A stretch of 33,848 nt of DNA from Candidatus Competibacteraceae bacterium. Lineage in GTDB: Bacteria > Pseudomonadota > Gammaproteobacteria > Competibacterales > Competibacteraceae. The position numbers and the translations under genes are program-made. The notes below the pieces were generated by a model, which saw only the letters and a list, made by a program, of their open reading frames with translations, made no database searches and was not told the DNA's origin. Position 1 is the stretch's first letter, and each line of letters begins with the position of its first letter. Below, one piece after another: positions 1,548 to 26,333 of this stretch. The stretch is from contig DAIRDI010000001.1 of NCBI GenBank assembly GCA_036796235.1, positions 1 to 33,848 on the forward strand, in the 5' to 3' direction.

Positions 1548-4031
1548 ATGGCATCCAAGACCTCCTTCCCTGAACCCTTGGCCGGCAAACTCCGGCGCAT
1601 CGAGGATCTCGCCGAAAAACTGGTTTACATCAAGTGGAGCCGGGAGTTCTTCGTGCTGCTCCAACGCTCGGCGCAGGATATCCTGAACTTGGCGAGCCCG
1701 CGGCCGGAGTACCACAAAATCGCGGTGCTGGCCGAACGCTTGCAGCAGCAGATTGGGGAATGTCTGGAGAAAAGCGAATTGCCCCGAGGATCGGAACGGG
1801 AACGGCTCATCGCCGTCGCGGATGCGTTGTGCCGGGCGACGCCCAATGCCGAGGACGACGGCCGCGACCCCGTCGCCCCAGAATCGCGCCGATCGATCAC
1901 GACCCTCACCATTCCTCTGTTTTCGAAGTGGGACCAAGGCGAGCGGACGCCGCCCAATTCGGGCGAAAAAACCGCCAAGTCGTTTCCCTTGTGGCTGATC
2001 GCGCCGGAGACCGCGCAGATCCTGGGGCGCAAGCTCGAACAGCGCGGCGGTTTCGAAATCCTGATGCGCGCCAGCCTGAACGAAGTCCGCCTCGCCTTGG
2101 CCCAGTCCCAGCAACCCGCCGCCCTGATCATCGATTTGGACCATGTCAGCGACAGCCAGACGACCTTGCAACAGATCGGGAGCTTGCGGCAACTGCTGGC
2201 TCCGGAAATTCCGCTGTTCTTTCTGGCCGATCGCGGCGACATCACCGCCCGGCTCGATGCGGTGGAGGCCGGCGCCGCCGGCTACTTCATCAAACCGGTG
2301 GATATCCCCCTGCTGCTGGAAGCACTGGACGAAAGAGTCCTGAAAACCCAGGATCACCGGATTCTGCTCGTCGAAGATTCCCTGCCCGCCGCCCGCGAGG
2401 CTGCCCGCTGGCTGGAGAGCCGCGGCATGGCGACCCAGGTGCTGGCTCAACCTCTGCAAATCCTGCAAGCGCTCTACAACTTCCAGCCCAGCCTGCTGAT
2501 CCTGAGCTTGGACCTGAAGGAAACCGACGGCCTCACCCTGGCCCGGGCGATCCAGCAGCACGAGCTGTTCCGGGAGCTGCCGCTGATTCTGTTGTCCGCG
2601 CAAACCGATATCGGCCAACGGCTATCCGCCGCCGGCTTGGGCGGCGAGGCGTTGCTGGGCAAGCCCCTGAACCCGGAACTGCTGTTCGCGGCGCTCGCCA
2701 AACGGCTGCGTCAGGGACATGGGTTGTACCGTAAACTCAGTCAGATCAGCAACCGCGATACGGTGAGCGATCTGTACAACCGCCCTTATTTCCTCGCGCA
2801 TCTGGAACGGGTGCTGGTCGCCACCGCCGCCAACGCCCAACCGGTGGCGATCATGCTAATCGCGCTGGATAACCTGCGCGGTATTGAGAACAGCGACGTG
2901 GCCGCCGCCGACGAGGTCGTCGAACAAGCCGCCAAACGCTTGAAAGCCACATTAGGAGCCGACCCGATCGCGGCCCGTTTCGGCGACGCCGTTTTCACCG
3001 TGCTGCTGAGCTTCGCCAACCAGGACGCGCTGCTCGCCACCGCGCGCGCCTTGCAAGAGAGTTTGGAAGCGCAGCCCTACGCCTTGGCCAGCGGCGACTT
3101 CAAGCTGCGCGCCAGCATCGGCATCAGCATCGCCAGTCCGACCGTGAACGAGGCTTCCATGCTGATCCAGCAAGCCGATCTGGCCTGTGGGATGGCCCGC
3201 GACAGCAAGGACACGCGGATTTATGTCCATCGCGGTCAAAGCGGCGAGCAGGACACGGACGCCATCGGGCAGCGCCGCTTGCTGGAAGAAATTCGCGAAG
3301 CCGTGCAACAGCAACGTATGAACCTGCTGTTCCAACCGGTCGTCAGCTTGCGCGGCGACACCACGGAACGGTATGAAGTGCTGTTGCGGATGCGCAATCT
3401 CGAAGGCTGGGAGTTGTTGCCGGAAACCGTGTTCGGCCTGGTCAAGCGCCACCGGATCGGCATGGTGCTCGATCGGTGGGTCATCGCCCACTCGATTCGG
3501 GTGCTGCGGGAACGCCAGATCCGCGGACACTCGGTGATTCTGTTCATCAATATTTCCCCGACCATCCTGCAAGACGAGGAACTGTTGAACTGGCTGCGCA
3601 GCGGCCTGCAAAAAACCGGCGTGCCGGCCGCCAAGCTGGTGTTTGAAATGACGGAAACCACCGCCGAATTGAACCGGCAGGGGCTGCTCCCGTTCCTGCG
3701 CCAGATCAAGGACCTGGGCTGCGGCATCTCGCTGGATCATTTCAGTGGTCACGAGCGCGCCCAAGCGTTGGTTCAGCTGCTGCAAGTCGATTATGTCAAG
3801 CTGGACCCTCGCTTTACCCAGGACTTGCTCAACGACAAGGAGCGCCAACGACAGCTTGGCGAGACGGTGCATGCCCTAGCCACCTTGGGCGTGACCACCA
3901 TCGTCACTGGCGTCGAAGACGCGGCCATCCTGCCGGCGCTGTGGGCCTGTGGCATCGATTACGTGCAAGGTTTCCTGCTGCAACGGCCCCATACCGATAT
4001 GAGCTACGACTTCGCGCACATGGTGCTGTGA
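1548..4031 (+). CDS. Multidomain c-di-GMP signalling protein: N-terminal helical region, pseudo-receiver, receiver, degenerate GGDEF, EAL
   Basis: 827 aa. The second REC has the LLVEDS...LSLDL...LSAQ...GKP pattern. The first REC-like domain lacks the acidic pair (LIAPET). The GGDEF position reads RFGDAVF. The EAL domain has YEVLLR, FINISP, FEMTET, ISLDHFSG, VKLD, GVEDA and QGF. Confidence 0.9.
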   Translation: MASKTSFPEPLAGKLRRIEDLAEKLVYIKWSREFFVLLQRSAQDILNLASPRPEYHKIAVLAERLQQQIGECLEKSELPRGSERERLIAVADALCRATPNAEDDGRDPVAPESRRSITTLTIPLFSKWDQGERTPPNSGEKTAKSFPLWLIAPETAQILGRKLEQRGGFEILMRASLNEVRLALAQSQQPAALIIDLDHVSDSQTTLQQIGSLRQLLAPEIPLFFLADRGDITARLDAVEAGAAGYFIKPVDIPLLLEALDERVLKTQDHRILLVEDSLPAAREAARWLESRGMATQVLAQPLQILQALYNFQPSLLILSLDLKETDGLTLARAIQQHELFRELPLILLSAQTDIGQRLSAAGLGGEALLGKPLNPELLFAALAKRLRQGHGLYRKLSQISNRDTVSDLYNRPYFLAHLERVLVATAANAQPVAIMLIALDNLRGIENSDVAAADEVVEQAAKRLKATLGADPIAARFGDAVFTVLLSFANQDALLATARALQESLEAQPYALASGDFKLRASIGISIASPTVNEASMLIQQADLACGMARDSKDTRIYVHRGQSGEQDTDAIGQRRLLEEIREAVQQQRMNLLFQPVVSLRGDTTERYEVLLRMRNLEGWELLPETVFGLVKRHRIGMVLDRWVIAHSIRVLRERQIRGHSVILFINISPTILQDEELLNWLRSGLQKTGVPAAKLVFEMTETTAELNRQGLLPFLRQIKDLGCGISLDHFSGHERAQALVQLLQVDYVKLDPRFTQDLLNDKERQRQLGETVHALATLGVTTIVTGVEDAAILPALWACGIDYVQGFLLQRPHTDMSYDFAHMVL

Positions 4032-7380: not shown

Positions 7381-7456
<76 letters not shown>

Positions 7457-7832: not shown

Positions 7833-8744
7833 TTACAACCGGCTCAACAGCTCGGCCTTCTTGGCGGCGAACTCTTCTTCGCTGAGGATGCCTTTGGCGC
7901 GCAGCTCGGCGAGCCTCTCGATGAGAGCAAAGACATCGACGCCGCCACCGCTTGGCGATGCGGGCGGGGCGGAGACTGGTGGAGCCGACGGGGATTCCGC
8001 GGCGACCGGTACCCCATTCGCCGATAGAACCGGCAGGCTGGCCACGTCCACCAGACCGTACTGGCTGGAAAACGCGAGCGATCCACCATGGGACTGTTGC
8101 TGCGAGAAACCGCTGATCTGGTGATCGAGAGTGTCGTAGATCGTGACCCGGCCACCGAGTTTGATCGCCAGACGCCGGGCCTGCGCGAAGTAGGCGTAAC
8201 GCGCGCCGTTCTGCGCGCCGGTGCTGGTGGGCCAGCGCAAGTCCGCACCCCACCAGTCGCCGGAGCTTCCAGGGGCCGGTGGCGCGAACAGGCTGACCGG
8301 CCCGACCGGTCCCGCCCCATCCTGCTGTTGTTGGCCCCCGCCGTAACCGCCCCCCTGTTGCTGACCGTAGCCACCTTGCTGCTGGCCACCCCCATAACCG
8401 CTCTGCTGCTGGCCATGATCGTCCGGTTGCTGGCCGCCCTGACTCTGCGACTGGAAACTGCCGCCGCGCACCAGGTCGGGCTGACTCGCCACCAGGTTGG
8501 CCAGGTCGTGACACAGTCCATCGACCCGTCCCTTCAGCGCATGATTGAACATATCGGACAGCATGAGCATACCGCCCTGCATCCATTGGCCGGAGCCGCC
8601 GAATTCAGGGTGATTGAACTGGGCCATGCCGCCGTTACCGTTGATGACGGCGTCCAGCATGCTCGTGACGGCGTCCGGGCTGAAACCGTACCGTTGGGCC
8701 AGGTCGTTGATCGCCTGCTGGCCGGCGGGAGTGAGAGGTCGCAT
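7833..8744 (-). CDS. SHOCT-domain protein with a Gln/Gly/Tyr-rich low-complexity linker
   Basis: 303 aa. The C-terminus DVFALIERLAELRAKGILSEEEFAAKKAELLSRL fits the SHOCT short C-terminal motif. The N-terminal globular part contains AQFNHPEFGGSGQWMQGGMLMLSDMFN. The central tract reads QSQGGQQPDDHGQQQSGYGGGQQQGGYGQQQGGGYGGGQQQQ. Confidence 0.8.
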   Translation of the reverse strand: MRPLTPAGQQAINDLAQRYGFSPDAVTSMLDAVINGNGGMAQFNHPEFGGSGQWMQGGMLMLSDMFNHALKGRVDGLCHDLANLVASQPDLVRGGSFQSQSQGGQQPDDHGQQQSGYGGGQQQGGYGQQQGGGYGGGQQQQDGAGPVGPVSLFAPPAPGSSGDWWGADLRWPTSTGAQNGARYAYFAQARRLAIKLGGRVTIYDTLDHQISGFSQQQSHGGSLAFSSQYGLVDVASLPVLSANGVPVAAESPSAPPVSAPPASPSGGGVDVFALIERLAELRAKGILSEEEFAAKKAELLSRL

Positions 8745-9338: not shown

Positions 9339-10361
9339 TCAGCGGCTGGTGATTTTCAGCTCGATGCGCCGGTTGCGGCGGTACGCTTCGGGGGTGTTGT
9401 TCGGGTCGATGGGATGATATTCCGCCATGCCGACCGCAGCCAGCCGCTCCGGCGGGACGCCTTGCAGGATCAGATAATTCACCACCTCCTGCGCTCGCGC
9501 CGTGGACAGTTCCCAGTTGGAGGGGAACCGGCCGCCGCGGATGGGCGCCCGGTCGGTATGGCCCTGCACCTCGATAATGACCGGCAAATCCGGCGGCAGT
9601 TGGGTCGCCAACTGCCGGTAGACGGCGGCGAACTTGTCCAGATCGCCGCGCCCGTTCGCCGACAGCGTCGCTTCACCGGAACCGAATAGGACCTCGGACT
9701 GAAACACAAACCGGTCGCCGACCACGACGATGTCGGGGTTGCCGGCGAACACCTCGCGCAGGCGGCCAAAAAAGTCGCTGGCGTATTTTTCCAGTTCCTC
9801 GACCCGCTCCAACAGCTTTTTCTTCAAGGCGCTGTCCAGCGCCTCAATTCGGTCCTTTTGCTCGACGATGACCGTATCGCGTCGGGCCAATTCTTCCTCG
9901 CTGACCGCCAGCGCCCGGTTGAGCCGTTCCAGTTCCGCCGCCAGTCGCTCGGTCCGGGCGCTCAGCAGCGCCGCCTGTTCATGGACGCTGGTGAGGGTCT
10001 GTTCGGTCTTGCTCTTGTCGGCGCTCAGGGCCGCATGCGCCATGCGCGCCGCCACCAGTTCATTCCGCAACTGCGCCAGCAGGGCATCCCGTTCGCCGGC
10101 CGTGGTTTCCAGACCCTGAACTTGGCCGCGCAGCAGCGCCGCTTCCCGTTCGGCGTCGCCGGCCAAGCCCTCCAGATGCGCGACGATCCGCTGGAGTTGA
10201 CCGATAGCGGTTTCCTTACCCAGGATTTCGCGGCCGATCAGCACTTCGGTGATGACAAAGACCGTGATCAAAAAAATCAGCACCATCACCAAGCCGCCCA
10301 AGGCGTCGGTGAAGGCGGGCCAGATGTTGAATTCGCCGAACGAATCACGCCGGCGGGGCAT
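9339..10361 (-). CDS. MotB/OmpA-like peptidoglycan-binding stator subunit with a roughly 170-aa coiled-coil spacer
   Basis: 340 aa. Single N-terminal TM preceded by a conserved Asp (WPAFTDALGGLVMVLIFL). Long heptad-like A/L/E/R-rich segment. C-terminal OmpA-like motif: VQGHTDRAPI...SNWELSTARAQEVVNYL...NRRIELKI. Confidence 0.85.
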   Translation of the reverse strand: MPRRRDSFGEFNIWPAFTDALGGLVMVLIFLITVFVITEVLIGREILGKETAIGQLQRIVAHLEGLAGDAEREAALLRGQVQGLETTAGERDALLAQLRNELVAARMAHAALSADKSKTEQTLTSVHEQAALLSARTERLAAELERLNRALAVSEEELARRDTVIVEQKDRIEALDSALKKKLLERVEELEKYASDFFGRLREVFAGNPDIVVVGDRFVFQSEVLFGSGEATLSANGRGDLDKFAAVYRQLATQLPPDLPVIIEVQGHTDRAPIRGGRFPSNWELSTARAQEVVNYLILQGVPPERLAAVGMAEYHPIDPNNTPEAYRRNRRIELKITSR

Positions 10362-11427
10362 GGTCGTCGCCGTCCGGGTTTAAGTCCGACCGCTGCGCCA
10401 GCAGTCGGGCGATGATCCGCAGCTCGTGCCGCAGATCGGCGGTGCGGTCGCTCTCGATATGTTGCAGGGTCGCCCGCAGCGATTCGATCTGTTCGCCCAG
10501 GTTCGCCACCTGCTCCGCAACCCGGGTGATGCCTTCACCCCGGTTGGCCAGATATTCGGTGGACGCCGCCACCCGCTCCAGCCGATCCACCGTGGATTGT
10601 AGGAGAGCGGCCAGATGCCGGGGAGAAATCGTTTCGGTCTGAGCGGTGACCGTGACCACCGGCTGCCACAGCGGGACCAAATCGCTGACCACCAACGCTT
10701 CCAGTTGGGCGTGATGATGGTTTTGGGCGTGGAACAGTTGCAGCTCCAGAAAGCCCAGCGCCAGCGCGCCCAGCAACCCGAACAGCGAGGCCGAAAACGC
10801 GGTGCCCATGCCGCCCAGCGGCGCGGCCAGACGATCCTTGAACTCGCCGATCAGGGCCATGGTATCGGTCGCCTGGTCGGTGGACAGACCGCCGATGACA
10901 TCGCGCACGCCGGCGATGGTCAACAACAGGCCATAAAAAGTGCCGATCAGGCCGAGCAGCACCAGCGCCCCGACCAGATAGCGCACCAGCGCCCGCTGAT
11001 CGTCGCCGCGCGTGGCCAGCGAATCCAGGAGATACGGCAGAGTGGCGGTGGCGTCGCCATGCTCGATGACTCGGTGGACCTTTTGCAAGAACTCACGCAC
11101 GCCGTACCGCTCGTTACCGAGCAGCAGTTCGTCGGCTTGGCGGAGCGGCAGTTCGCGGCGGCGGGCCTTGAGGGCGACCTCTCCCGCCTGCCCGGCGGCG
11201 CGGGTATCGAGCAGGGCGCCGATCAGCGCCTTGAGGGTGTAAGCCACTCCCAACAGAAAGGCGACGCCGATGGTCCCGTTCAGATAGGGATTGGTCAGGA
11301 AGGCTTTGGTAAGGGGTTCCTGAAAGGCCGCGCCCAGCGCCGCCATGGCGGCCAGAAACAGCAGGGAACGTAGCAGATAGCTTCCGGCGCCCCGGACGGA
11401 GCGTCGGTCGGGCATGAGGGTGGGCAT
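10345..11427 (-). CDS. MotA/TolQ/ExbB-family proton-channel protein (4-TM MotA-like topology) with a C-terminal coiled-coil tail
   Basis: 360 aa. Two N-terminal TMs, a soluble loop of about 95 aa, then LLGLIGTFYGLLLTIAGV and GMGTAFSASLFGLLGALALGFL (channel-family signatures). This is followed by a helical tail of about 130 aa. It overlaps the MotB-like gene by 17 nt. There is no clear SD, so the start (11427 or 11415) is uncertain. Confidence 0.8.
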   Translation of the reverse strand: MPTLMPDRRSVRGAGSYLLRSLLFLAAMAALGAAFQEPLTKAFLTNPYLNGTIGVAFLLGVAYTLKALIGALLDTRAAGQAGEVALKARRRELPLRQADELLLGNERYGVREFLQKVHRVIEHGDATATLPYLLDSLATRGDDQRALVRYLVGALVLLGLIGTFYGLLLTIAGVRDVIGGLSTDQATDTMALIGEFKDRLAAPLGGMGTAFSASLFGLLGALALGFLELQLFHAQNHHHAQLEALVVSDLVPLWQPVVTVTAQTETISPRHLAALLQSTVDRLERVAASTEYLANRGEGITRVAEQVANLGEQIESLRATLQHIESDRTADLRHELRIIARLLAQRSDLNPDGDDHAPPA

Positions 11428-11451: not shown

Positions 11452-12060
11452 TTACGCCAGTTGGAGGTTTTGGCCCCAGCCGCCCTCGAACGCCAGGCTG
11501 TCCAGCGACTTGCGTTCTCGTGGGGCCAGTTCGCGTTCGCGCAGCGACTCCGGCAAGACATCGATTGGCCCCGGATGACCGACCGCGATCATCGCCATGC
11601 AGGCGTGGTCGGCGGGGATCGCGAACGTCGCTCTGGCTTTTTCGGGATCGAAGCCGCCCATCTGGTGGGCGACCAGACCGAGGGCGGCGGCTTGCAGGCA
11701 GAGATTTTCGCTGGCCGCGCCGGTATCGTGCTGCGCCCAACGGTTCGGCTGGTTGTTGTGACCGAAGTTCGGCGTCGCCACCGACAGCAGCAGCACCGGC
11801 GCGTTGTGAACCCAGATTTGATTGCCCTCGGCCAGACATTCGAACGCCTGTCGCCAGCCGGCGGCGTCGCGGAACCGATCCCAGACCAGATAGCGCCACG
11901 GCTGATCGCCGAAACAGGATGGCGCCCAGCGGGCTGCTTCCAGCAGCGCCAGCAGGTGTTCGCGACTGACCGATCGCTCCGGGTCGATGGCGCGCGGACT
12001 CCAGCGGCGGGCGAGCAGATCGGCGATGGCGAGTTGAGTGACAGCGGGTTTTTCCAGCAT
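11452..12060 (-). CDS. Nitroreductase family protein
   Basis: 202 aa from MLEKPAVTQ (AGGAGA SD upstream). RRWSPRA...LLEAARWAPS...QPW and HDTGAASENLCLQAAALGL are typical nitroreductase-fold motifs. The track ORF start at 12168 is an upstream extension. Confidence 0.85.
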   Translation of the reverse strand: MLEKPAVTQLAIADLLARRWSPRAIDPERSVSREHLLALLEAARWAPSCFGDQPWRYLVWDRFRDAAGWRQAFECLAEGNQIWVHNAPVLLLSVATPNFGHNNQPNRWAQHDTGAASENLCLQAAALGLVAHQMGGFDPEKARATFAIPADHACMAMIAVGHPGPIDVLPESLRERELAPRERKSLDSLAFEGGWGQNLQLA

Positions 12061-12179
12061 GAGTTTCTCCTGAGGGGGTTTGGCGATTGTGTAGACCACG
12101 TCGGTCCGAAAAAAGCGACAATGACGGGCAATATCTTCTTCAACCCTTTCTAAACCCGCAACCATCAAAGGAGCCCGTC

Positions 12180-12641
12180 ATGGCTCTCATCCAGGAAATC
12201 AACGATTACCTCAACCACCACGTCCCGCTGTTCCGGGCCATGCAGGCGCGCTTGGAGCGCTGCGACGCCACCGGACTGGCCTTGGTCGCGCCGCTGGCGC
12301 CGAATCTCAACGACAAGGGCATCGCCTTCGGCGGTTCGCTGGCGGCCATCGCGTCGCTGACCGGTTGGGCCCTGACCACGGCGACCCTGCGCGAACACGG
12401 CGAGGCCGCCGAAATCGTGATTACCGAAAGCACCCTGAAGTTTCTGCGCCCGGTGCGGGAGGACATCGTGGCGGAGTGCGCGCGGCCGGATGCGGCGACG
12501 TCCGAACAGTTCATCGAACGTTACCGCCTGCGGGGAAAAGCCCGCTGGACCGTTGAGGTCGTCATCCGCGCCGCAGGCGAGCCGGCGATGACTTTCACCG
12601 GGCAGTATGGGATTTTTCGGGCTGAAAAACCCTTGGCGTAA
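12180..12641 (+). CDS. Hotdog-fold thioesterase (YiiD C-terminal-like)
   Basis: 153 aa from MALIQEINDYLNHHVPL (AAAGGAG SD at 12167-12173). NDKGIAFGGSLAAIASLTGW is typical of the YiiD_C putative thioesterase family. The family assignment is from memory. Confidence 0.65.
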   Translation: MALIQEINDYLNHHVPLFRAMQARLERCDATGLALVAPLAPNLNDKGIAFGGSLAAIASLTGWALTTATLREHGEAAEIVITESTLKFLRPVREDIVAECARPDAATSEQFIERYRLRGKARWTVEVVIRAAGEPAMTFTGQYGIFRAEKPLA

Positions 12642-24698: not shown

Positions 24699-26333
24699 CT
24701 AGGCGGTATAACCCGGAATCTGGTCGACCTCCACGGCGTCGAGTTGCTCCGGTTGCAGGTATTGCCGGGCGTAGTTTAGCCAGATGCCCTCGCGAACGAA
24801 CACGTCGAAGAGGTCGGGGTCGATCTTTCGATCGATCGCCATCCGGCCGAGAATCGCCAGCACTTCGCTCAACGGCTTGCCGGGTTTATAAGGTCGGTCG
24901 CGAGCGGTCAGGGCTTCGAAGATATCGGCCAGACCGATGATGCGGGCCGGCATGGATAAAGTCCGCTCGTCCAAACCGCGGTGGTAGCCGCTGCCGTCGA
25001 GCTTTTCGTGATGGCTCCCGGCATATTCGGGTACGTTGCGCAGGTTTTTAAGCCAAGGCAAGGTATTCAGCATCCGCAGGGTCAAGGCGACGTGTTCCTC
25101 GATAATAGCGTGCTCCTGAGGATTGAGGGTGCCTCGGGCGATACACAGATTGCCGACTTCGTCCTCGGACAGGAAAGCGCATTCCCGGCCCTCCGATCCG
25201 ATCCAGCGGTAGCCGGCAATCTGGCGAACCCGATCCTGATCCTCGGGGCGCATGAATTCGCCGCCGATATTGCAGTGGCGCAGGTGTTCCCGATCGGCGT
25301 CCAGCCTGGCCAGCCGCTCGCGGAATCGCTGCTCCAAACCCGGTAACTCGGCGGTGTCGCCGCGCTCCACGGCCGCCAGTTGCGCTTGCAGCCATTCGAT
25401 CCGGGCATCGCGTTTGAGCACTTCAAAGCGGGTATCCACCAGTTCGATGCGATCGAACAGTGTCTCCAGCTTGGTGGCTTTGTCCACCACATGCACCGGT
25501 GTGGCGATTTTGCCGCAATCGTGCAACAGTCCAGCGATTTTGAGTTCGAAGAGTTCCTCGTCCGTGGGGCGAAAGTCTTTCAAACGCCCTCGCTCGGAGC
25601 GGCGGGCGGCCTCGGCGATCATCATGGTCAGAACGGGCACTCGCTGACAGTGAGCGCCCGTGTAGGGAGATTTATGGTCGATCGCGGTGTTGATCAGTTC
25701 GATCAGCGCTTCGAATAGATGCCGGAGCTGACCGATCAAGTGATGGTTGGTCAGAGCGATGGCCGCTTGGGAGGCCAAGGATTCCGCGAGTTGGCGGTCG
25801 GTCGTCGAAAAGGCGCGCACCGCTCCGGTCTCCGGGTCGAGCGCGTTGATGAGTTGGAACACCCCGATGATTTCGTCGTCGTGATTCTTCATCGGCACGG
25901 TCAGGAAGGAGCGGGAGTGGTAACCGGTTTTCCGGTCGAAGCGGTGCGTCCCGGAAAAGTCAAAGTTGGAGTCCGCGTAGGCGTCGTCGATCAGGACGGT
26001 CGTATCATGCAGCACCGCATAGGTCACCACCATGCCGGTATTGGGCTGACCGAGCGAGTCGTACAGTGGGATGGGCGCAAAAGGGATAGGCACGCCCGAC
26101 CCTCCACCCATGAACAACTGGAGCGAATCGTTGTGGAGAACCTCGAAACAGAGTTGATGACGATCCTCGTCCAGCCGATACAACGTACCGCCATCGGCAT
26201 TTAGCAAGCGCTTGGCCGCAAGCAGGATCATTTCCAGCAACTTCGGCGTATCCCGCTCTCTGGACAGGGCGATGCCGATCCGGTTGAGTTGCTCCAAACA
26301 CCGCAGGGGATCGTTGGAGTGGGATGGGGGCAT
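24699..26333 (-). CDS. GAF domain / HD-GYP-type phosphohydrolase
   Basis: 544 aa. N-terminal GAF-like region. The HD domain has LLHDCGKIATP, then an insert of about 100 aa, then SHHEKLDGSGYHRGL (GYP reads GYH) and GLADIFEALTARDRPYK. AAGGA SD lies 6 nt upstream. Confidence 0.9.
   Translation of the reverse strand: MPPSHSNDPLRCLEQLNRIGIALSRERDTPKLLEMILLAAKRLLNADGGTLYRLDEDRHQLCFEVLHNDSLQLFMGGGSGVPIPFAPIPLYDSLGQPNTGMVVTYAVLHDTTVLIDDAYADSNFDFSGTHRFDRKTGYHSRSFLTVPMKNHDDEIIGVFQLINALDPETGAVRAFSTTDRQLAESLASQAAIALTNHHLIGQLRHLFEALIELINTAIDHKSPYTGAHCQRVPVLTMMIAEAARRSERGRLKDFRPTDEELFELKIAGLLHDCGKIATPVHVVDKATKLETLFDRIELVDTRFEVLKRDARIEWLQAQLAAVERGDTAELPGLEQRFRERLARLDADREHLRHCNIGGEFMRPEDQDRVRQIAGYRWIGSEGRECAFLSEDEVGNLCIARGTLNPQEHAIIEEHVALTLRMLNTLPWLKNLRNVPEYAGSHHEKLDGSGYHRGLDERTLSMPARIIGLADIFEALTARDRPYKPGKPLSEVLAILGRMAIDRKIDPDLFDVFVREGIWLNYARQYLQPEQLDAVEVDQIPGYTA

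What the first reader, a model, noticed from the sequence alone, without database searches (positions are those of the whole stretch)
9339..11427. Stand-alone MotA/MotB-like stator pair in which both subunits carry long coiled coils (Zorya-core-like, no recognisable effector)
Two genes overlapping by 17 nt encode the pair.
- The first is a 4-TM MotA-type channel protein (LLGLIGTFYGL and GMGTAFSASLFGLLG signatures) with a C-terminal helical tail of about 130 aa.
- The second is a MotB-type partner with the conserved TM-proximal Asp (FTDALGG) and an OmpA-like peptidoglycan-binding end. These are separated by a coiled coil of about 170 aa, much longer than the flagellar MotB linker.

No flagellar, Tol-Pal or TonB genes are nearby. 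A tailed MotA-like subunit plus a PG-anchored MotB-like subunit is the core of the Zorya anti-phage system (ZorAB). Here no ZorC/D/E-type nuclease or helicase follows. Instead, the pair sits in a tight minus-strand block with short gaps of 24, 54 and 51 nt: nitroreductase, MotA-like, MotB-like, RraA, SHOCT/QG protein. This may be an uncharacterised ion-driven envelope machine or sensor. I rank it as the top candidate in the window.
Basis: partly seen in the sequence, partly recalled or inferred. Interest (0 to 1): 0.7.

Follow-up and report, generated by a model that had tools for sequence, protein, structure and literature searches.

The report
Non-flagellar ZorAB-like motor gene pair
Two overlapping genes encode a membrane channel protein and a cell-wall-anchored partner of the kind that forms ion-driven rotary motors, and they belong to a large, widespread housekeeping family whose cellular job is still unknown.

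Summary
Two minus-strand ORFs, A (10345-11427, 360 aa) and B (9339-10361, 340 aa), overlap by 17 nt.

A has four TM segments. Its predicted fold matches only ExbB/TolQ/ZorA/MotA. It has no Pfam or NCBIfam family but hits PADLOC ZorA models.

B has one TM with an invariant Asp19, a single ~165-residue periplasmic helix and a MotB/MotS-type OmpA domain. It passes the NCBIfam cut-off for PRK09039, "peptidoglycan-binding protein".

The pair is not a local oddity. The A family has about 2,800 clusters at 50% identity. A is followed by a PRK09039 B in Competibacteraceae, Plasticicumulans, a Desulfomonilaceae MAG and Alphaproteobacteria such as Sinorhizobium meliloti, always among housekeeping genes. 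No Zorya effector, flagellar, Tol or Ton genes lie nearby. RraA, the nitroreductase and the SHOCT protein are neighbours only within this lineage.

Two new points:
- The B stalk varies from 177 to 345 residues, only in heptad-compatible steps.
- The A tail ends in a conserved Arg-rich tip.

The "motA/motB" genes studied in flagellum-less Komagataeibacter hansenii belong to this family. There they show polar localisation, cell elongation on overexpression and viable knock-outs.

Best reading: a proton-driven 5:2 motor of an unrecognised housekeeping class related to ZorAB, with unknown output.

The parts
10345..11427 (-). Gene A: 360-aa, four-TM, MotA/ExbB/TolQ/ZorA-type subunit, the presumed pentameric ring
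   Evidence: ORF. Four TM segments. AF2 model with pLDDT 75.6. The Foldseek top 50 are all ExbB/TolQ/ZorA/MotA. PADLOC ZorA E 5e-8. No Pfam or NCBIfam hit.
10732..11379 (-). A residues 17-232: the four-TM core with a cytoplasmic helical domain between TM2 and TM3
   Evidence: This region aligns to S. meliloti and K. hansenii-type homologues at 34-37% identity.
10927..10959 (-). A TM3 motif LLGLIGTFYGL. G159, G162 and G166 are invariant and T163 is at least 90% conserved in 91 diverse relatives. T163 is the candidate partner of the B-subunit Asp.
   Evidence: The analogy to ZorA Thr147 comes from PMC11946911.
10768..10812 (-). A TM4 motif GMGTAFSASLFGLLG. F211, G217 and L218 are invariant; P203 and S214 are at least 90% conserved.
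   Evidence: The analogy to ZorA Ser184 comes from PMC11946911.
10387..10623 (-). A residues 269-347: cytoplasmic tail of two helices with heptad periodicity
   Evidence: AF2 helices 269-294 and 300-347. Periodicity z = 7.5.
10396..10434 (-). A tail-tip motif LRHELRIIARLLA. The family consensus is eLRxEiRLLaRTiAa, with an Arg ladder.
   Evidence: Conserved near the C-terminus in diverse family members despite variable tail length. It aligns with K. hansenii-type LRLLARTIA.
10345..10361 (-). 17-nt overlap of the A stop with the B start, suggesting translational coupling
9339..10361 (-). Gene B: 340-aa MotB-like subunit of the PRK09039 family, the presumed dimeric axle
   Evidence: NCBIfam NF006543 scores 312.1 bits against a cut-off of 305, matching full length. 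Pfam OmpA. AF2 model with pLDDT 79.9.
10236..10322 (-). B residues 14-42: the WPAFTD motif and the single TM helix
   Evidence: W14, P15, A16, F17, T18 and D19 are invariant in 18 homologues. WPGFVD is kept in alphaproteobacterial members.
10305..10307 (-). Codon of B Asp19, the presumed ion-carrying residue
   Evidence: The role is inferred by analogy with MotB D32 and ZorB D26 (PMC11946911).
9747..10235 (-). B residues 43-205: periplasmic coiled-coil stalk, about 24 nm if straight
   Evidence: Single predicted helix 14-205, with block-mean pLDDT above 90 for about residues 91-180. Heptad periodicity z = 4.8. Length varies in the family only in steps of 0, 1 or 4 mod 7.
9342..9731 (-). B residues 211-340: OmpA/MotB-type peptidoglycan-binding domain
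   Evidence: Pfam PF00691 E 3e-20. PDB sequence hits to MotS, MotB and PomB. Foldseek TM-score (target-normalised) about 0.8 to MotS, DVU_2228, PomB and MotB.

Best explanation
The two genes encode the A and B subunits of an ion-driven, probably proton-driven, motor of the 5:2 MotAB/ExbBD/TolQR/ZorAB type. The pair belongs to a large housekeeping family that is not recognised as a motor class. Its A subunit is unnamed and closest to ZorA. Its B subunit is NCBIfam PRK09039.

Shown here:
- A has four TM segments and an ExbB/ZorA-like fold.
- B has one TM with an invariant Asp, a long register-preserving periplasmic coiled coil and a MotB-type peptidoglycan-binding domain.
- The two genes are translationally overlapped and always adjacent.
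- The family is widespread, appears vertically inherited, and carries no effector gene.

Inferred:
- A forms a pentamer around a B dimer.
- Protons pass via B Asp19 and A Thr163 plus Ser212/Ser214.
- This drives A5 to rotate around a B2 axle that the stalk fixes to the cell wall.
- The short cytoplasmic tail bundle, with its conserved Arg-rich tip, passes the motion or a signal to a partner encoded elsewhere.

The most likely cellular role is in envelope, polar or cell-division physiology, not flagellar rotation or phage defence. K. hansenii family members localise to the poles, give elongated and chained cells when overexpressed, and are dispensable.
For: Fold and sequence
- The Foldseek top 50 hits of the A model are all ExbB, TolQ, ZorA or MotA.
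- PADLOC ZorA models match A (E 5e-8) and 91 of 91 diverse relatives (best 2e-17). Pfam MotA_ExbB matches 61 of 91 weakly and does not match A itself.
- B passes the NF006543 cut-off. B's C-terminal domain matches MotS/MotB/PomB structures.
- Invariant residues: B W14-D19; A G159, G162, G166, F211, G217 and L218, with T163 and S214 at least 90% conserved.

Family size and pairing
- The A family has 2,797 clusters at E<=1e-3.
- A is followed by B in every locus at 36% identity or more where the contig continues.
- Partners in distant contexts also pass PRK09039 cut-offs.

Context
- Neighbours are housekeeping genes and differ between lineages.
- There were no viral-contig relatives.

Stalk and tail
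- The stalk is heptad-quantised.
- The tail tip is conserved.

Experimental link
- K. hansenii motA/motB (PMC6570709 and review PMC7347698) were verified as family members using a contig found with the published primer. A is 34% identical over residues 16-344. B is 39% identical and scores 480 bits on NF006543.
Against: - No complex model or stoichiometry could be computed. The A5B2 assembly and rotation rest on homology alone.
- A's Foldseek E-values are modest (about 1e-3) and its model is of medium confidence (pLDDT 75.6).
- The stalk, about 24 nm here and about 21-46 nm in the family, is longer than the usual distance from inner membrane to peptidoglycan. A simple 'axle pinned to the wall above it' picture does not explain this.
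- No output partner is known.
- The K. hansenii phenotypes come mainly from overexpression and are indirect.
Confidence: 0.65

Rival explanations
1. An orphan or minimal Zorya-type anti-phage sensor. A-B would detect envelope perturbation by phage and signal through the tail to an effector encoded elsewhere.
For: A and all 91 relatives tested match PADLOC ZorA models better than the generic Pfam model. The architecture is a tailed A subunit plus a PG-binding B subunit.
Against: - No ZorC/D/E/F/G, nuclease or helicase gene lies next to the pair in any context.
- The position is conserved among housekeeping genes across genera: efp, inositol monophosphatase, A, B, rpmE in Alphaproteobacteria, and nitroreductase, A, B, RraA in Competibacteraceae. 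This indicates vertical inheritance rather than a defence island.
- The tail is 132 aa here and 170 aa at the family median, against a ZorA tail spanning roughly 500 residues.
- ZorB has no linker, whereas B has a 165-residue stalk.
Confidence: 0.08
2. A divergent flagellar stator paralogue (MotAB/PomAB/MotCD-like) that powers a flagellum.
For: B's PG-binding domain is closest to MotS, MotD, PomB and MotB. JGI annotates homologues as 'chemotaxis protein MotB'.
Against: - A gives no Pfam MotA_ExbB hit and B gives no MotB_plug hit.
- Flagellar MotB, MotD and MotS NCBIfam models score far below their cut-offs, for example 110 against 283.
- A's fold resembles ExbB, TolQ and ZorA at least as well as MotA.
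- There are no flagellar genes in the window.
- Verified family members occur in Komagataeibacter, which the authors state has no flagellum.
Confidence: 0.04
3. A Tol/Ton-like force transducer. The long B stalk would cross the peptidoglycan and deliver PMF-derived force to an outer-membrane process, with B acting as both TolR and TolA.
For: The stalk (about 21-46 nm) is long enough to span the periplasm. A's fold is closest to ExbB and TolQ. K. hansenii overexpression gives chained, elongated cells, reminiscent of Tol phenotypes.
Against: B ends in a peptidoglycan-binding OmpA domain, not a TonB/TolA-type C-terminal domain or an ExbD/TolR fold. No outer-membrane partner gene is conserved nearby. 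Stalk length varies twofold, which does not fit a fixed span.
Confidence: 0.13
4. A passive structural tether or spacer between inner membrane and peptidoglycan that has lost ion conduction.
For: The stalk is long, rigid and preserves heptad register, with a PG anchor at its end. No output partner is known.
Against: The residues needed for ion coupling are the most conserved in both proteins. These are B W14-D19, the A TM3 Gly-x-x-Gly-Thr motif and the TM4 Ser motif.
Confidence: 0.08

Closest known systems
ZorAB, the core of the Zorya anti-phage system (E. coli ZorA5B2; PDB 8qyd, 8vvn)
   Same: - The A subunit has four TM segments, an ExbB-like cytoplasmic bundle and a helical C-terminal tail.
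- The B subunit has one TM with an Asp and a PG-binding domain.
- ZorA is the closest sequence relative: PADLOC ZorA models match 91 of 91 family members.
- Thr on TM3 and Ser on TM4 sit where ZorA Thr147 and Ser184 contact ZorB Asp26.
   Different: - The tail is 3-5 times shorter: 132 aa here and 170 aa at the family median.
- B has a 165-residue stalk where ZorB has no linker.
- There are no effector genes, and the context is housekeeping and vertically inherited.
Flagellar stators MotAB, PomAB, MotPS and MotCD
   Same: The gene pair is adjacent. A has four TM segments. B has a TM-proximal Asp and an OmpA-type PG-binding domain, with best structural matches to MotS, MotB and PomB.
   Different: - A fails Pfam MotA_ExbB and B lacks MotB_plug.
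- Scores fall well below the NCBIfam flagellar cut-offs.
- The linker is a long coiled coil rather than a plug plus flexible linker.
- The family is present in flagellum-less Komagataeibacter.
- No flagellar genes lie nearby.
ExbBD and TolQR
   Same: These are the best Foldseek matches for the A model (ExbB E 9e-4, TM-score normalised to target up to 0.65; TolQ). The TM helices extend into long cytoplasmic helices.
   Different: - A has four predicted TM segments, not three.
- B has an OmpA domain rather than an ExbD/TolR fold.
- There is no TonB or TolA gene nearby.
Komagataeibacter hansenii 'MotA/MotB' (Jacek et al. 2019, PMC6570709), i.e. the alphaproteobacterial 'MotA/TolQ/ExbB family protein' plus PRK09039 'peptidoglycan-binding protein' pair
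   Same: This is the same family.
- A is 34% identical over residues 16-344, including the tail tip.
- B is 39% identical and scores 480 bits on NF006543.
- The gene order is the same.
- S. meliloti carries the same pair.
   Different: The lineage is different (Gammaproteobacteria, Competibacteraceae) and so are the neighbours. The window's A is too divergent for Pfam MotA_ExbB. In the papers found here, the genes were treated as motility-related and no mechanism was established.
SiiAB (type I secretion accessory motor of Salmonella SPI-4)
   Same: It is a non-flagellar MotAB-like pair. A distant subfamily found here in Devosia and Maritalea sits next to an ABC exporter in B-then-A order.
   Different: The window pair has no secretion genes nearby, has A-then-B order, and has an OmpA domain. 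SiiAB sequences could not be compared here.

Membership tests
5:2 ion-driven motor superfamily (MotA/ExbB/TolQ/ZorA plus partner) | A subunit with the ExbB/MotA-type helical membrane fold | tested here: met
   The Foldseek top 50 PDB hits are all ExbB, TolQ, ZorA or MotA, with probability 0.94-1.00 (1.00 for most) and best E 9e-4.
5:2 ion-driven motor superfamily (MotA/ExbB/TolQ/ZorA plus partner) | B subunit with a single N-terminal TM carrying a conserved Asp | tested here: met
   One TM. D19 is invariant within the WPAFTD motif and is kept as WPGFVD or WPGYVD in Alphaproteobacteria.
5:2 ion-driven motor superfamily (MotA/ExbB/TolQ/ZorA plus partner) | A5:B2 stoichiometry and ion-driven rotation | not testable with these tools
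   No multimer modelling or experiment was available.
PRK09039 'peptidoglycan-binding protein' (NCBIfam NF006543) with its upstream A partner | Full-length match of B above the curated cut-off | tested here: met
   312.1 bits against a cut-off of 305. Residues 3-340 match profile positions 6-350 of 350.
PRK09039 'peptidoglycan-binding protein' (NCBIfam NF006543) with its upstream A partner | An A-family gene immediately upstream | tested here: met
   The two genes overlap by 17 nt in the window. The same arrangement is seen in all loci with sufficient contig and in S. meliloti, the K. hansenii-type contig and metagenomic contexts.
Zorya (ZorAB plus effectors) | A subunit matches ZorA profiles | tested here: inconclusive
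   PADLOC ZorA3 gives E 5e-8 and 30 bits, but only over residues 146-296, which correspond to profile positions 103-250 of 692. A PDB ZorA sequence search gives E 3.7.
Zorya (ZorAB plus effectors) | Long ZorA tail, spanning roughly 500 residues and present in all subtypes | tested here: not met
   There are 132 residues after TM4; the family median is 170. The ZorA tail description comes from PMC11946911.
Zorya (ZorAB plus effectors) | ZorB PG-binding domain fused to the TM without a linker | tested here: not met
   A 165-residue helix separates the TM from the OmpA domain. The ZorB description comes from PMC11946911.
Zorya (ZorAB plus effectors) | Adjacent ZorC/ZorD, ZorE or ZorF/ZorG genes | tested here: not met
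   The neighbours give no PADLOC hits. Pfam shows housekeeping genes in nine further contexts.
Zorya (ZorAB plus effectors) | Protection against phage | not testable with these tools
   This needs an experiment.
Flagellar stator (MotAB/PomAB) | A matches Pfam MotA_ExbB, and B matches MotB_plug or the flagellar NCBIfam equivalogs above cut-off | tested here: not met
   A gives no Pfam hit at E<=0.01, and B hits only OmpA. MotD scores 110 against 283 and MotS 94 against 264.
Flagellar stator (MotAB/PomAB) | Association with flagellar genes or with flagellated organisms | tested here: not met
   There are no flagellar genes in the window. Verified family members occur in flagellum-less K. hansenii.
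ExbBD / TolQR | B subunit with the ExbD/TolR periplasmic fold, and a TonB or TolA partner | tested here: not met
   B carries an OmpA domain. No TonB or TolA gene lies nearby.
SiiAB-type secretion accessory | Linkage to a type I secretion ABC, MFP and OMP operon | tested here: not met
   There are no secretion genes in the window. Such linkage is seen only in the distant Devosia subfamily.

The most novel reading that the evidence does not exclude
This is a housekeeping sister family of ZorAB and a separate class of PMF-driven 5:2 motor. It is a core gene pair in Alphaproteobacteria and present in some Gammaproteobacteria. Its B-subunit stalk is a rigid coiled coil kept in heptad register, which sets or senses envelope geometry at the poles or the division site. 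Its Arg-tipped cytoplasmic tail couples this to an unknown cellular process. Zorya would then be a defence-specialised offshoot of this older machine.
Probability: 0.25. Interest if true: 0.8.

Novelty: new variant of a known kind. Interest (0 to 1): 0.55.

Why it matters
The 5:2 motors listed in the reviews read here power flagella, gliding, Ton and Tol transport, type I and type IX secretion and Zorya defence. This family is not on those lists. Yet it has about 2,800 clusters at 50% identity and sits among housekeeping genes in model Alphaproteobacteria such as S. meliloti.

- Working out what it drives would add a new output to this motor class.
- It may show where ZorAB came from.
- It would correct a common annotation error: homologues are labelled 'chemotaxis protein MotB' in JGI data, and family members are called motA/motB in organisms without flagella.
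- The heptad-quantised stalk gives a direct experimental handle, since its length and register can be changed.

Tried and rejected
- **Functional module with neighbours.** I tested whether the nitroreductase, RraA and the SHOCT protein form a module with the pair. I rejected this because they are kept only in close relatives.
- **PDB sequence searches with A.** Single-sequence and 15-sequence profile searches gave only coiled-coil noise. ZorA scored E 3.7. Only fold comparison and the PADLOC HMMs showed the relationship.
- **Viral contigs.** A scan using two conserved peptide patterns from A found no relatives.
- **Heptad quantisation of the A tail.** The distance from TM4 to the tip motif takes all values mod 7, probably because a disordered linker at 255-268 absorbs the variation.
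- **Literature.** Searches for PRK09039, ZorA-like terms, stator-like terms and alphaproteobacterial models found no mechanistic study. One search was badly designed and uninformative. Only the Komagataeibacter work turned up.
- **Greedy ORF clustering of loci.** This was too noisy in high-GC DNA. I replaced it with gene calls from the look-up of encoding contigs.
- **Not possible here.** I could not run A5B2 complex modelling, a phylogeny including ZorA, MotA, ExbB and TolQ sequences, or a direct comparison with SiiAB.
Full report
**1. Observation**

Two minus-strand ORFs are present as described. A is 10345-11427 (360 aa, ATG start). B is 9339-10361 (340 aa, ATG start). B's start codon lies 17 nt inside the end of A. 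The gaps to the nitroreductase upstream and to RraA and the SHOCT protein downstream are 24, 54 and 51 nt.

The quoted motifs are at A 157-167, A 206-220 and B 17-23. Hydropathy gives four TM segments in A and one in B.

The rest of the window is ordinary chromosomal DNA of a Competibacteraceae bacterium. It encodes FBPase, a REC-GGDEF-EAL protein, an Amidase_2-family N-acetylmuramoyl-L-alanine amidase, NadA, a lipid A acyltransferase and similar genes. It has no flagellar, Tol, Ton, secretion or defence genes. GC content is even across the region.

**2. What the proteins are**

*Protein A*
- A has no Pfam or NCBIfam family. PDB sequence searches give nothing useful.
- Its AF2 model (pLDDT 75.6) is entirely helical. 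Long TM helices continue into the cytoplasm, followed by a two-helix tail at 269-294 and 300-347.
- The 50 best Foldseek matches in the PDB are all ExbB, TolQ, ZorA or MotA chains. The best E-value is 9e-4 and TM-scores reach 0.65 on the target.
- PADLOC ZorA models match A residues 146-296, covering TM3 and TM4, at E 5e-8.

*Protein B*
- B matches NCBIfam NF006543 (PRK09039.1-2, "peptidoglycan-binding protein") over its full length and above the curated cut-off, 312.1 against 305 bits.
- Its model (pLDDT 79.9) is one continuous helix from 14 to 205 followed by an OmpA fold.
- The nearest structures to that fold are the periplasmic domains of MotS, DVU_2228, PomB and MotB, with TM-score (target-normalised) about 0.8.

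**3. The family**

A profile of 15 A homologues finds 2,797 clusters at 50% identity with E<=1e-3, and 326 with E<=1e-30. In the 150 best hits listed, lengths are mostly 330-480 aa with a few up to 614.

Among 91 diverse representatives:
- G159, G162, G166, F211, G217 and L218 are invariant. T163, P203 and S214 are at least 90% conserved.
- All 91 hit PADLOC ZorA models, with a best E of 2e-17.
- 61 hit Pfam MotA_ExbB, but only weakly, with a best E of 1e-6.

By these profile libraries the family therefore lies nearer to ZorA than to the generic MotA/ExbB/TolQ model. The libraries differ in breadth, so this is not a phylogeny.

Wherever I looked, the downstream partner is a PRK09039 protein above cut-off. 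B homologues are annotated "peptidoglycan-binding protein" by NCBI and "chemotaxis protein MotB" by JGI. A homologues are annotated "hypothetical protein".

**4. Context**

I compared 77 species-level genome loci.
- B follows A in every locus at 36% identity or more where the contig continues.
- RraA follows B in 37 of 42 close loci (at least 70% identity), in 3 of 9 at 40-70%, and in none of the three more distant loci with room to test.
- The nitroreductase precedes A in 27 of 40, 4 of 14 and 0 of 13 loci respectively.
- The SHOCT protein appears only in the two closest genomes.

More distant members are bare two-gene units among unrelated genes. Others sit in a recurrent alphaproteobacterial setting: efp, inositol monophosphatase, A, B, then rpmE a little further on. 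This is seen in three metagenomic contigs, in S. meliloti, and in part (efp to B, where the contig ends) in a Komagataeibacter-type contig.

- S. meliloti A is 37% identical to window A, and S. meliloti B is 39% identical to window B over its full length.
- No nuclease, helicase or other Zorya effector gene is adjacent in any context.
- A viral-contig scan found nothing.

This is the pattern of a vertically inherited housekeeping module, not of a defence island.

**5. Two features not described before, as far as I could find**

*(a) The B stalk keeps heptad register.* In 111 homologues the distance from WPAFTD to GDRFVFQSEV ranges from 177 to 345 residues and takes 23 distinct values. Every value differs from the window's 201 by 0, 1 or 4 modulo 7. 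None differs by 2, 3, 5 or 6.
- These are the steps a coiled coil tolerates: whole heptads, stutters and skips.
- The stalk is therefore a genuine continuous coiled coil whose phase between the TM helices and the PG-binding domain is preserved.
- At 0.15 nm per residue it is about 24 nm long here and about 21-46 nm across the family. That exceeds the usual distance from inner membrane to peptidoglycan (my own knowledge). This remains unexplained.
- The sequences are related to one another, so the count is not a formal probability.

*(b) The A tail has a conserved tip.* The tail varies in length, with a median of 170 residues after TM4 and a 5-95% range of 92-235. It nevertheless ends in a conserved motif, eLRxEiRLLaRTiAa, in which Glu is 81% conserved and three Arg are 65-69% conserved. 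The motif lies about 10-25 residues from the C-terminus and reads LRHELRIIARLLA here. In a pentamer this would form a ring of arginines, which suggests a conserved binding partner.

**6. Link to experiments**

Jacek et al. 2019 (PMC6570709) studied adjacent "motA" (348 aa) and "motB" (321 aa) genes in K. hansenii, which the authors state has no flagellum.
- Overexpression gave elongated, chained cells, threefold greater colony spreading and looser cellulose.
- GFP fusions were unipolar in short cells and bipolar in long cells.
- Disruption mutants are viable and make denser cellulose (review PMC7347698).

I checked that these genes belong to the family. The published motA forward primer hit one metagenome contig. 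That contig encodes a 348-aa protein ending in TNHSAS and a 320-aa protein beginning MARRSR and ending EFRLTDR, matching the primers.
- That A is 34% identical to window A over residues 16-344, including the tail tip.
- That B is 39% identical to window B and scores 480 bits on NF006543.

**7. Mechanism**

*Shown:* the fold class of A, the domain order of B, the invariant Asp and the Gly/Thr/Ser TM motifs, gene coupling, and distribution.

*Inferred by homology to solved MotAB and ZorAB complexes (PMC11946911):*
- A5 surrounds B2.
- Protons pass through Asp19 in contact with A Thr163 and Ser212/Ser214.
- A5 rotates around the wall-anchored B2.
- The tail bundle transmits this motion to a partner.

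*Function:* the role is inferred only from the K. hansenii phenotypes and the housekeeping context. It probably lies in envelope, polar or division physiology.

**8. Comparison with known systems**

- The pair works like a 5:2 motor and resembles ZorAB most. It fails three defining Zorya features: the long tail, a linker-less ZorB, and adjacent effectors.
- It fails the flagellar-stator tests: the Pfam and NCBIfam cut-offs, flagellar context, and restriction to flagellated hosts.
- It is not ExbBD or TolQR, because B carries an OmpA domain and there is no TonB or TolA.
- Relative to the classification in PMC12505986 it is a hybrid. A has an ExbB-like, non-flagellar-type architecture, while B has an OmpA-type domain and an exceptionally long linker.
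- The 5:2-motor papers and reviews I read do not list this family.

**9. Verdict**

The suggestion that the neighbouring genes form a module does not.

The locus is an ordinary member of its family, but the family itself is an under-recognised variant of a known motor class. I score interest at 0.55. The finding is worthwhile for specialists and opens testable questions, but it is not categorically new and the function is still inferred.

Noticed in passing
L075 2358-7712 (Devosia rhodophyticola); also L062-L077: A distant subfamily, about 30% identical in A, has a different layout. In order it carries an ABC exporter, a B-like protein of 412 aa, an A-like protein of 478 aa and a PilZ-domain protein. 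The B-like protein has the WPGFVDAL TM motif and a coiled coil but no OmpA domain. This hints at a secretion-linked, c-di-GMP-controlled variant reminiscent of SiiAB.
   Followed up: partly
L080, L082, L083, L085 (S. meliloti), L086: Alphaproteobacterial-type members sit in a recurrent context: efp, inositol monophosphatase, A, B, then rpmE further on. L080 and L086 carry an extra OmpA-like gene just upstream of A.
   Followed up: partly
window 9747-10235 (B stalk) and 111 homologues: The stalk varies from 177 to 345 residues. It is therefore longer than the usual inner-membrane-to-peptidoglycan gap. How the terminal PG-binding domain is positioned is unexplained.
   Followed up: partly
window 7833-8744 (-): This encodes a 303-aa protein with a Gln/Gly-rich low-complexity centre and a C-terminal SHOCT domain. 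It was found only in the two closest genomes, L001 and L002.
   Followed up: no
window 11452-12168 (-) and 12087-12641 (+): The listed TTG start of the nitroreductase ORF overlaps the divergent YiiD-type thioesterase ORF by 82 nt. The Pfam domain begins at residue 53 and there is an in-frame Met at about residue 36-37, so the true start is probably further downstream.
   Followed up: no
window 1548-4031 (+) and 24699-26333 (-): Two putative cyclic-di-GMP signalling proteins lie in the window: a REC-GGDEF-EAL protein and a GAF plus HD_5/HD-domain (possibly HD-GYP-type) protein. No link to the pair was shown.
   Followed up: no
window 7381-7456 (+): A tRNA-Ala (CGC) gene lies between the DUF2064/glycosyltransferase region and the SHOCT gene. 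A spurious 652-aa ORF runs across it on the opposite strand.
   Followed up: no
L085 (CP090106.1); L042; P0333; P0279: These look like database labelling problems.
- CP090106.1 is titled 'plasmid pSymB' but is 3.7 Mb and carries rpmE, a thiamine phosphate synthase gene and the A-B pair, so it looks like the chromosome.
- A 'Synechococcaceae' MAG (L042), an 'Accumulibacter' MAG protein (P0333) and a 'Xanthomonadaceae' protein (P0279) are 69-87% identical to the Competibacteraceae pair. These are probably binning errors.
   Followed up: no
L078 15449-16309: One gammaproteobacterial genome that carries a stand-alone A-B pair also encodes a MotY-like protein (MotY_N plus OmpA) and a chemoreceptor within 7 kb. 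The family therefore coexists with flagellar systems in some hosts.
   Followed up: no
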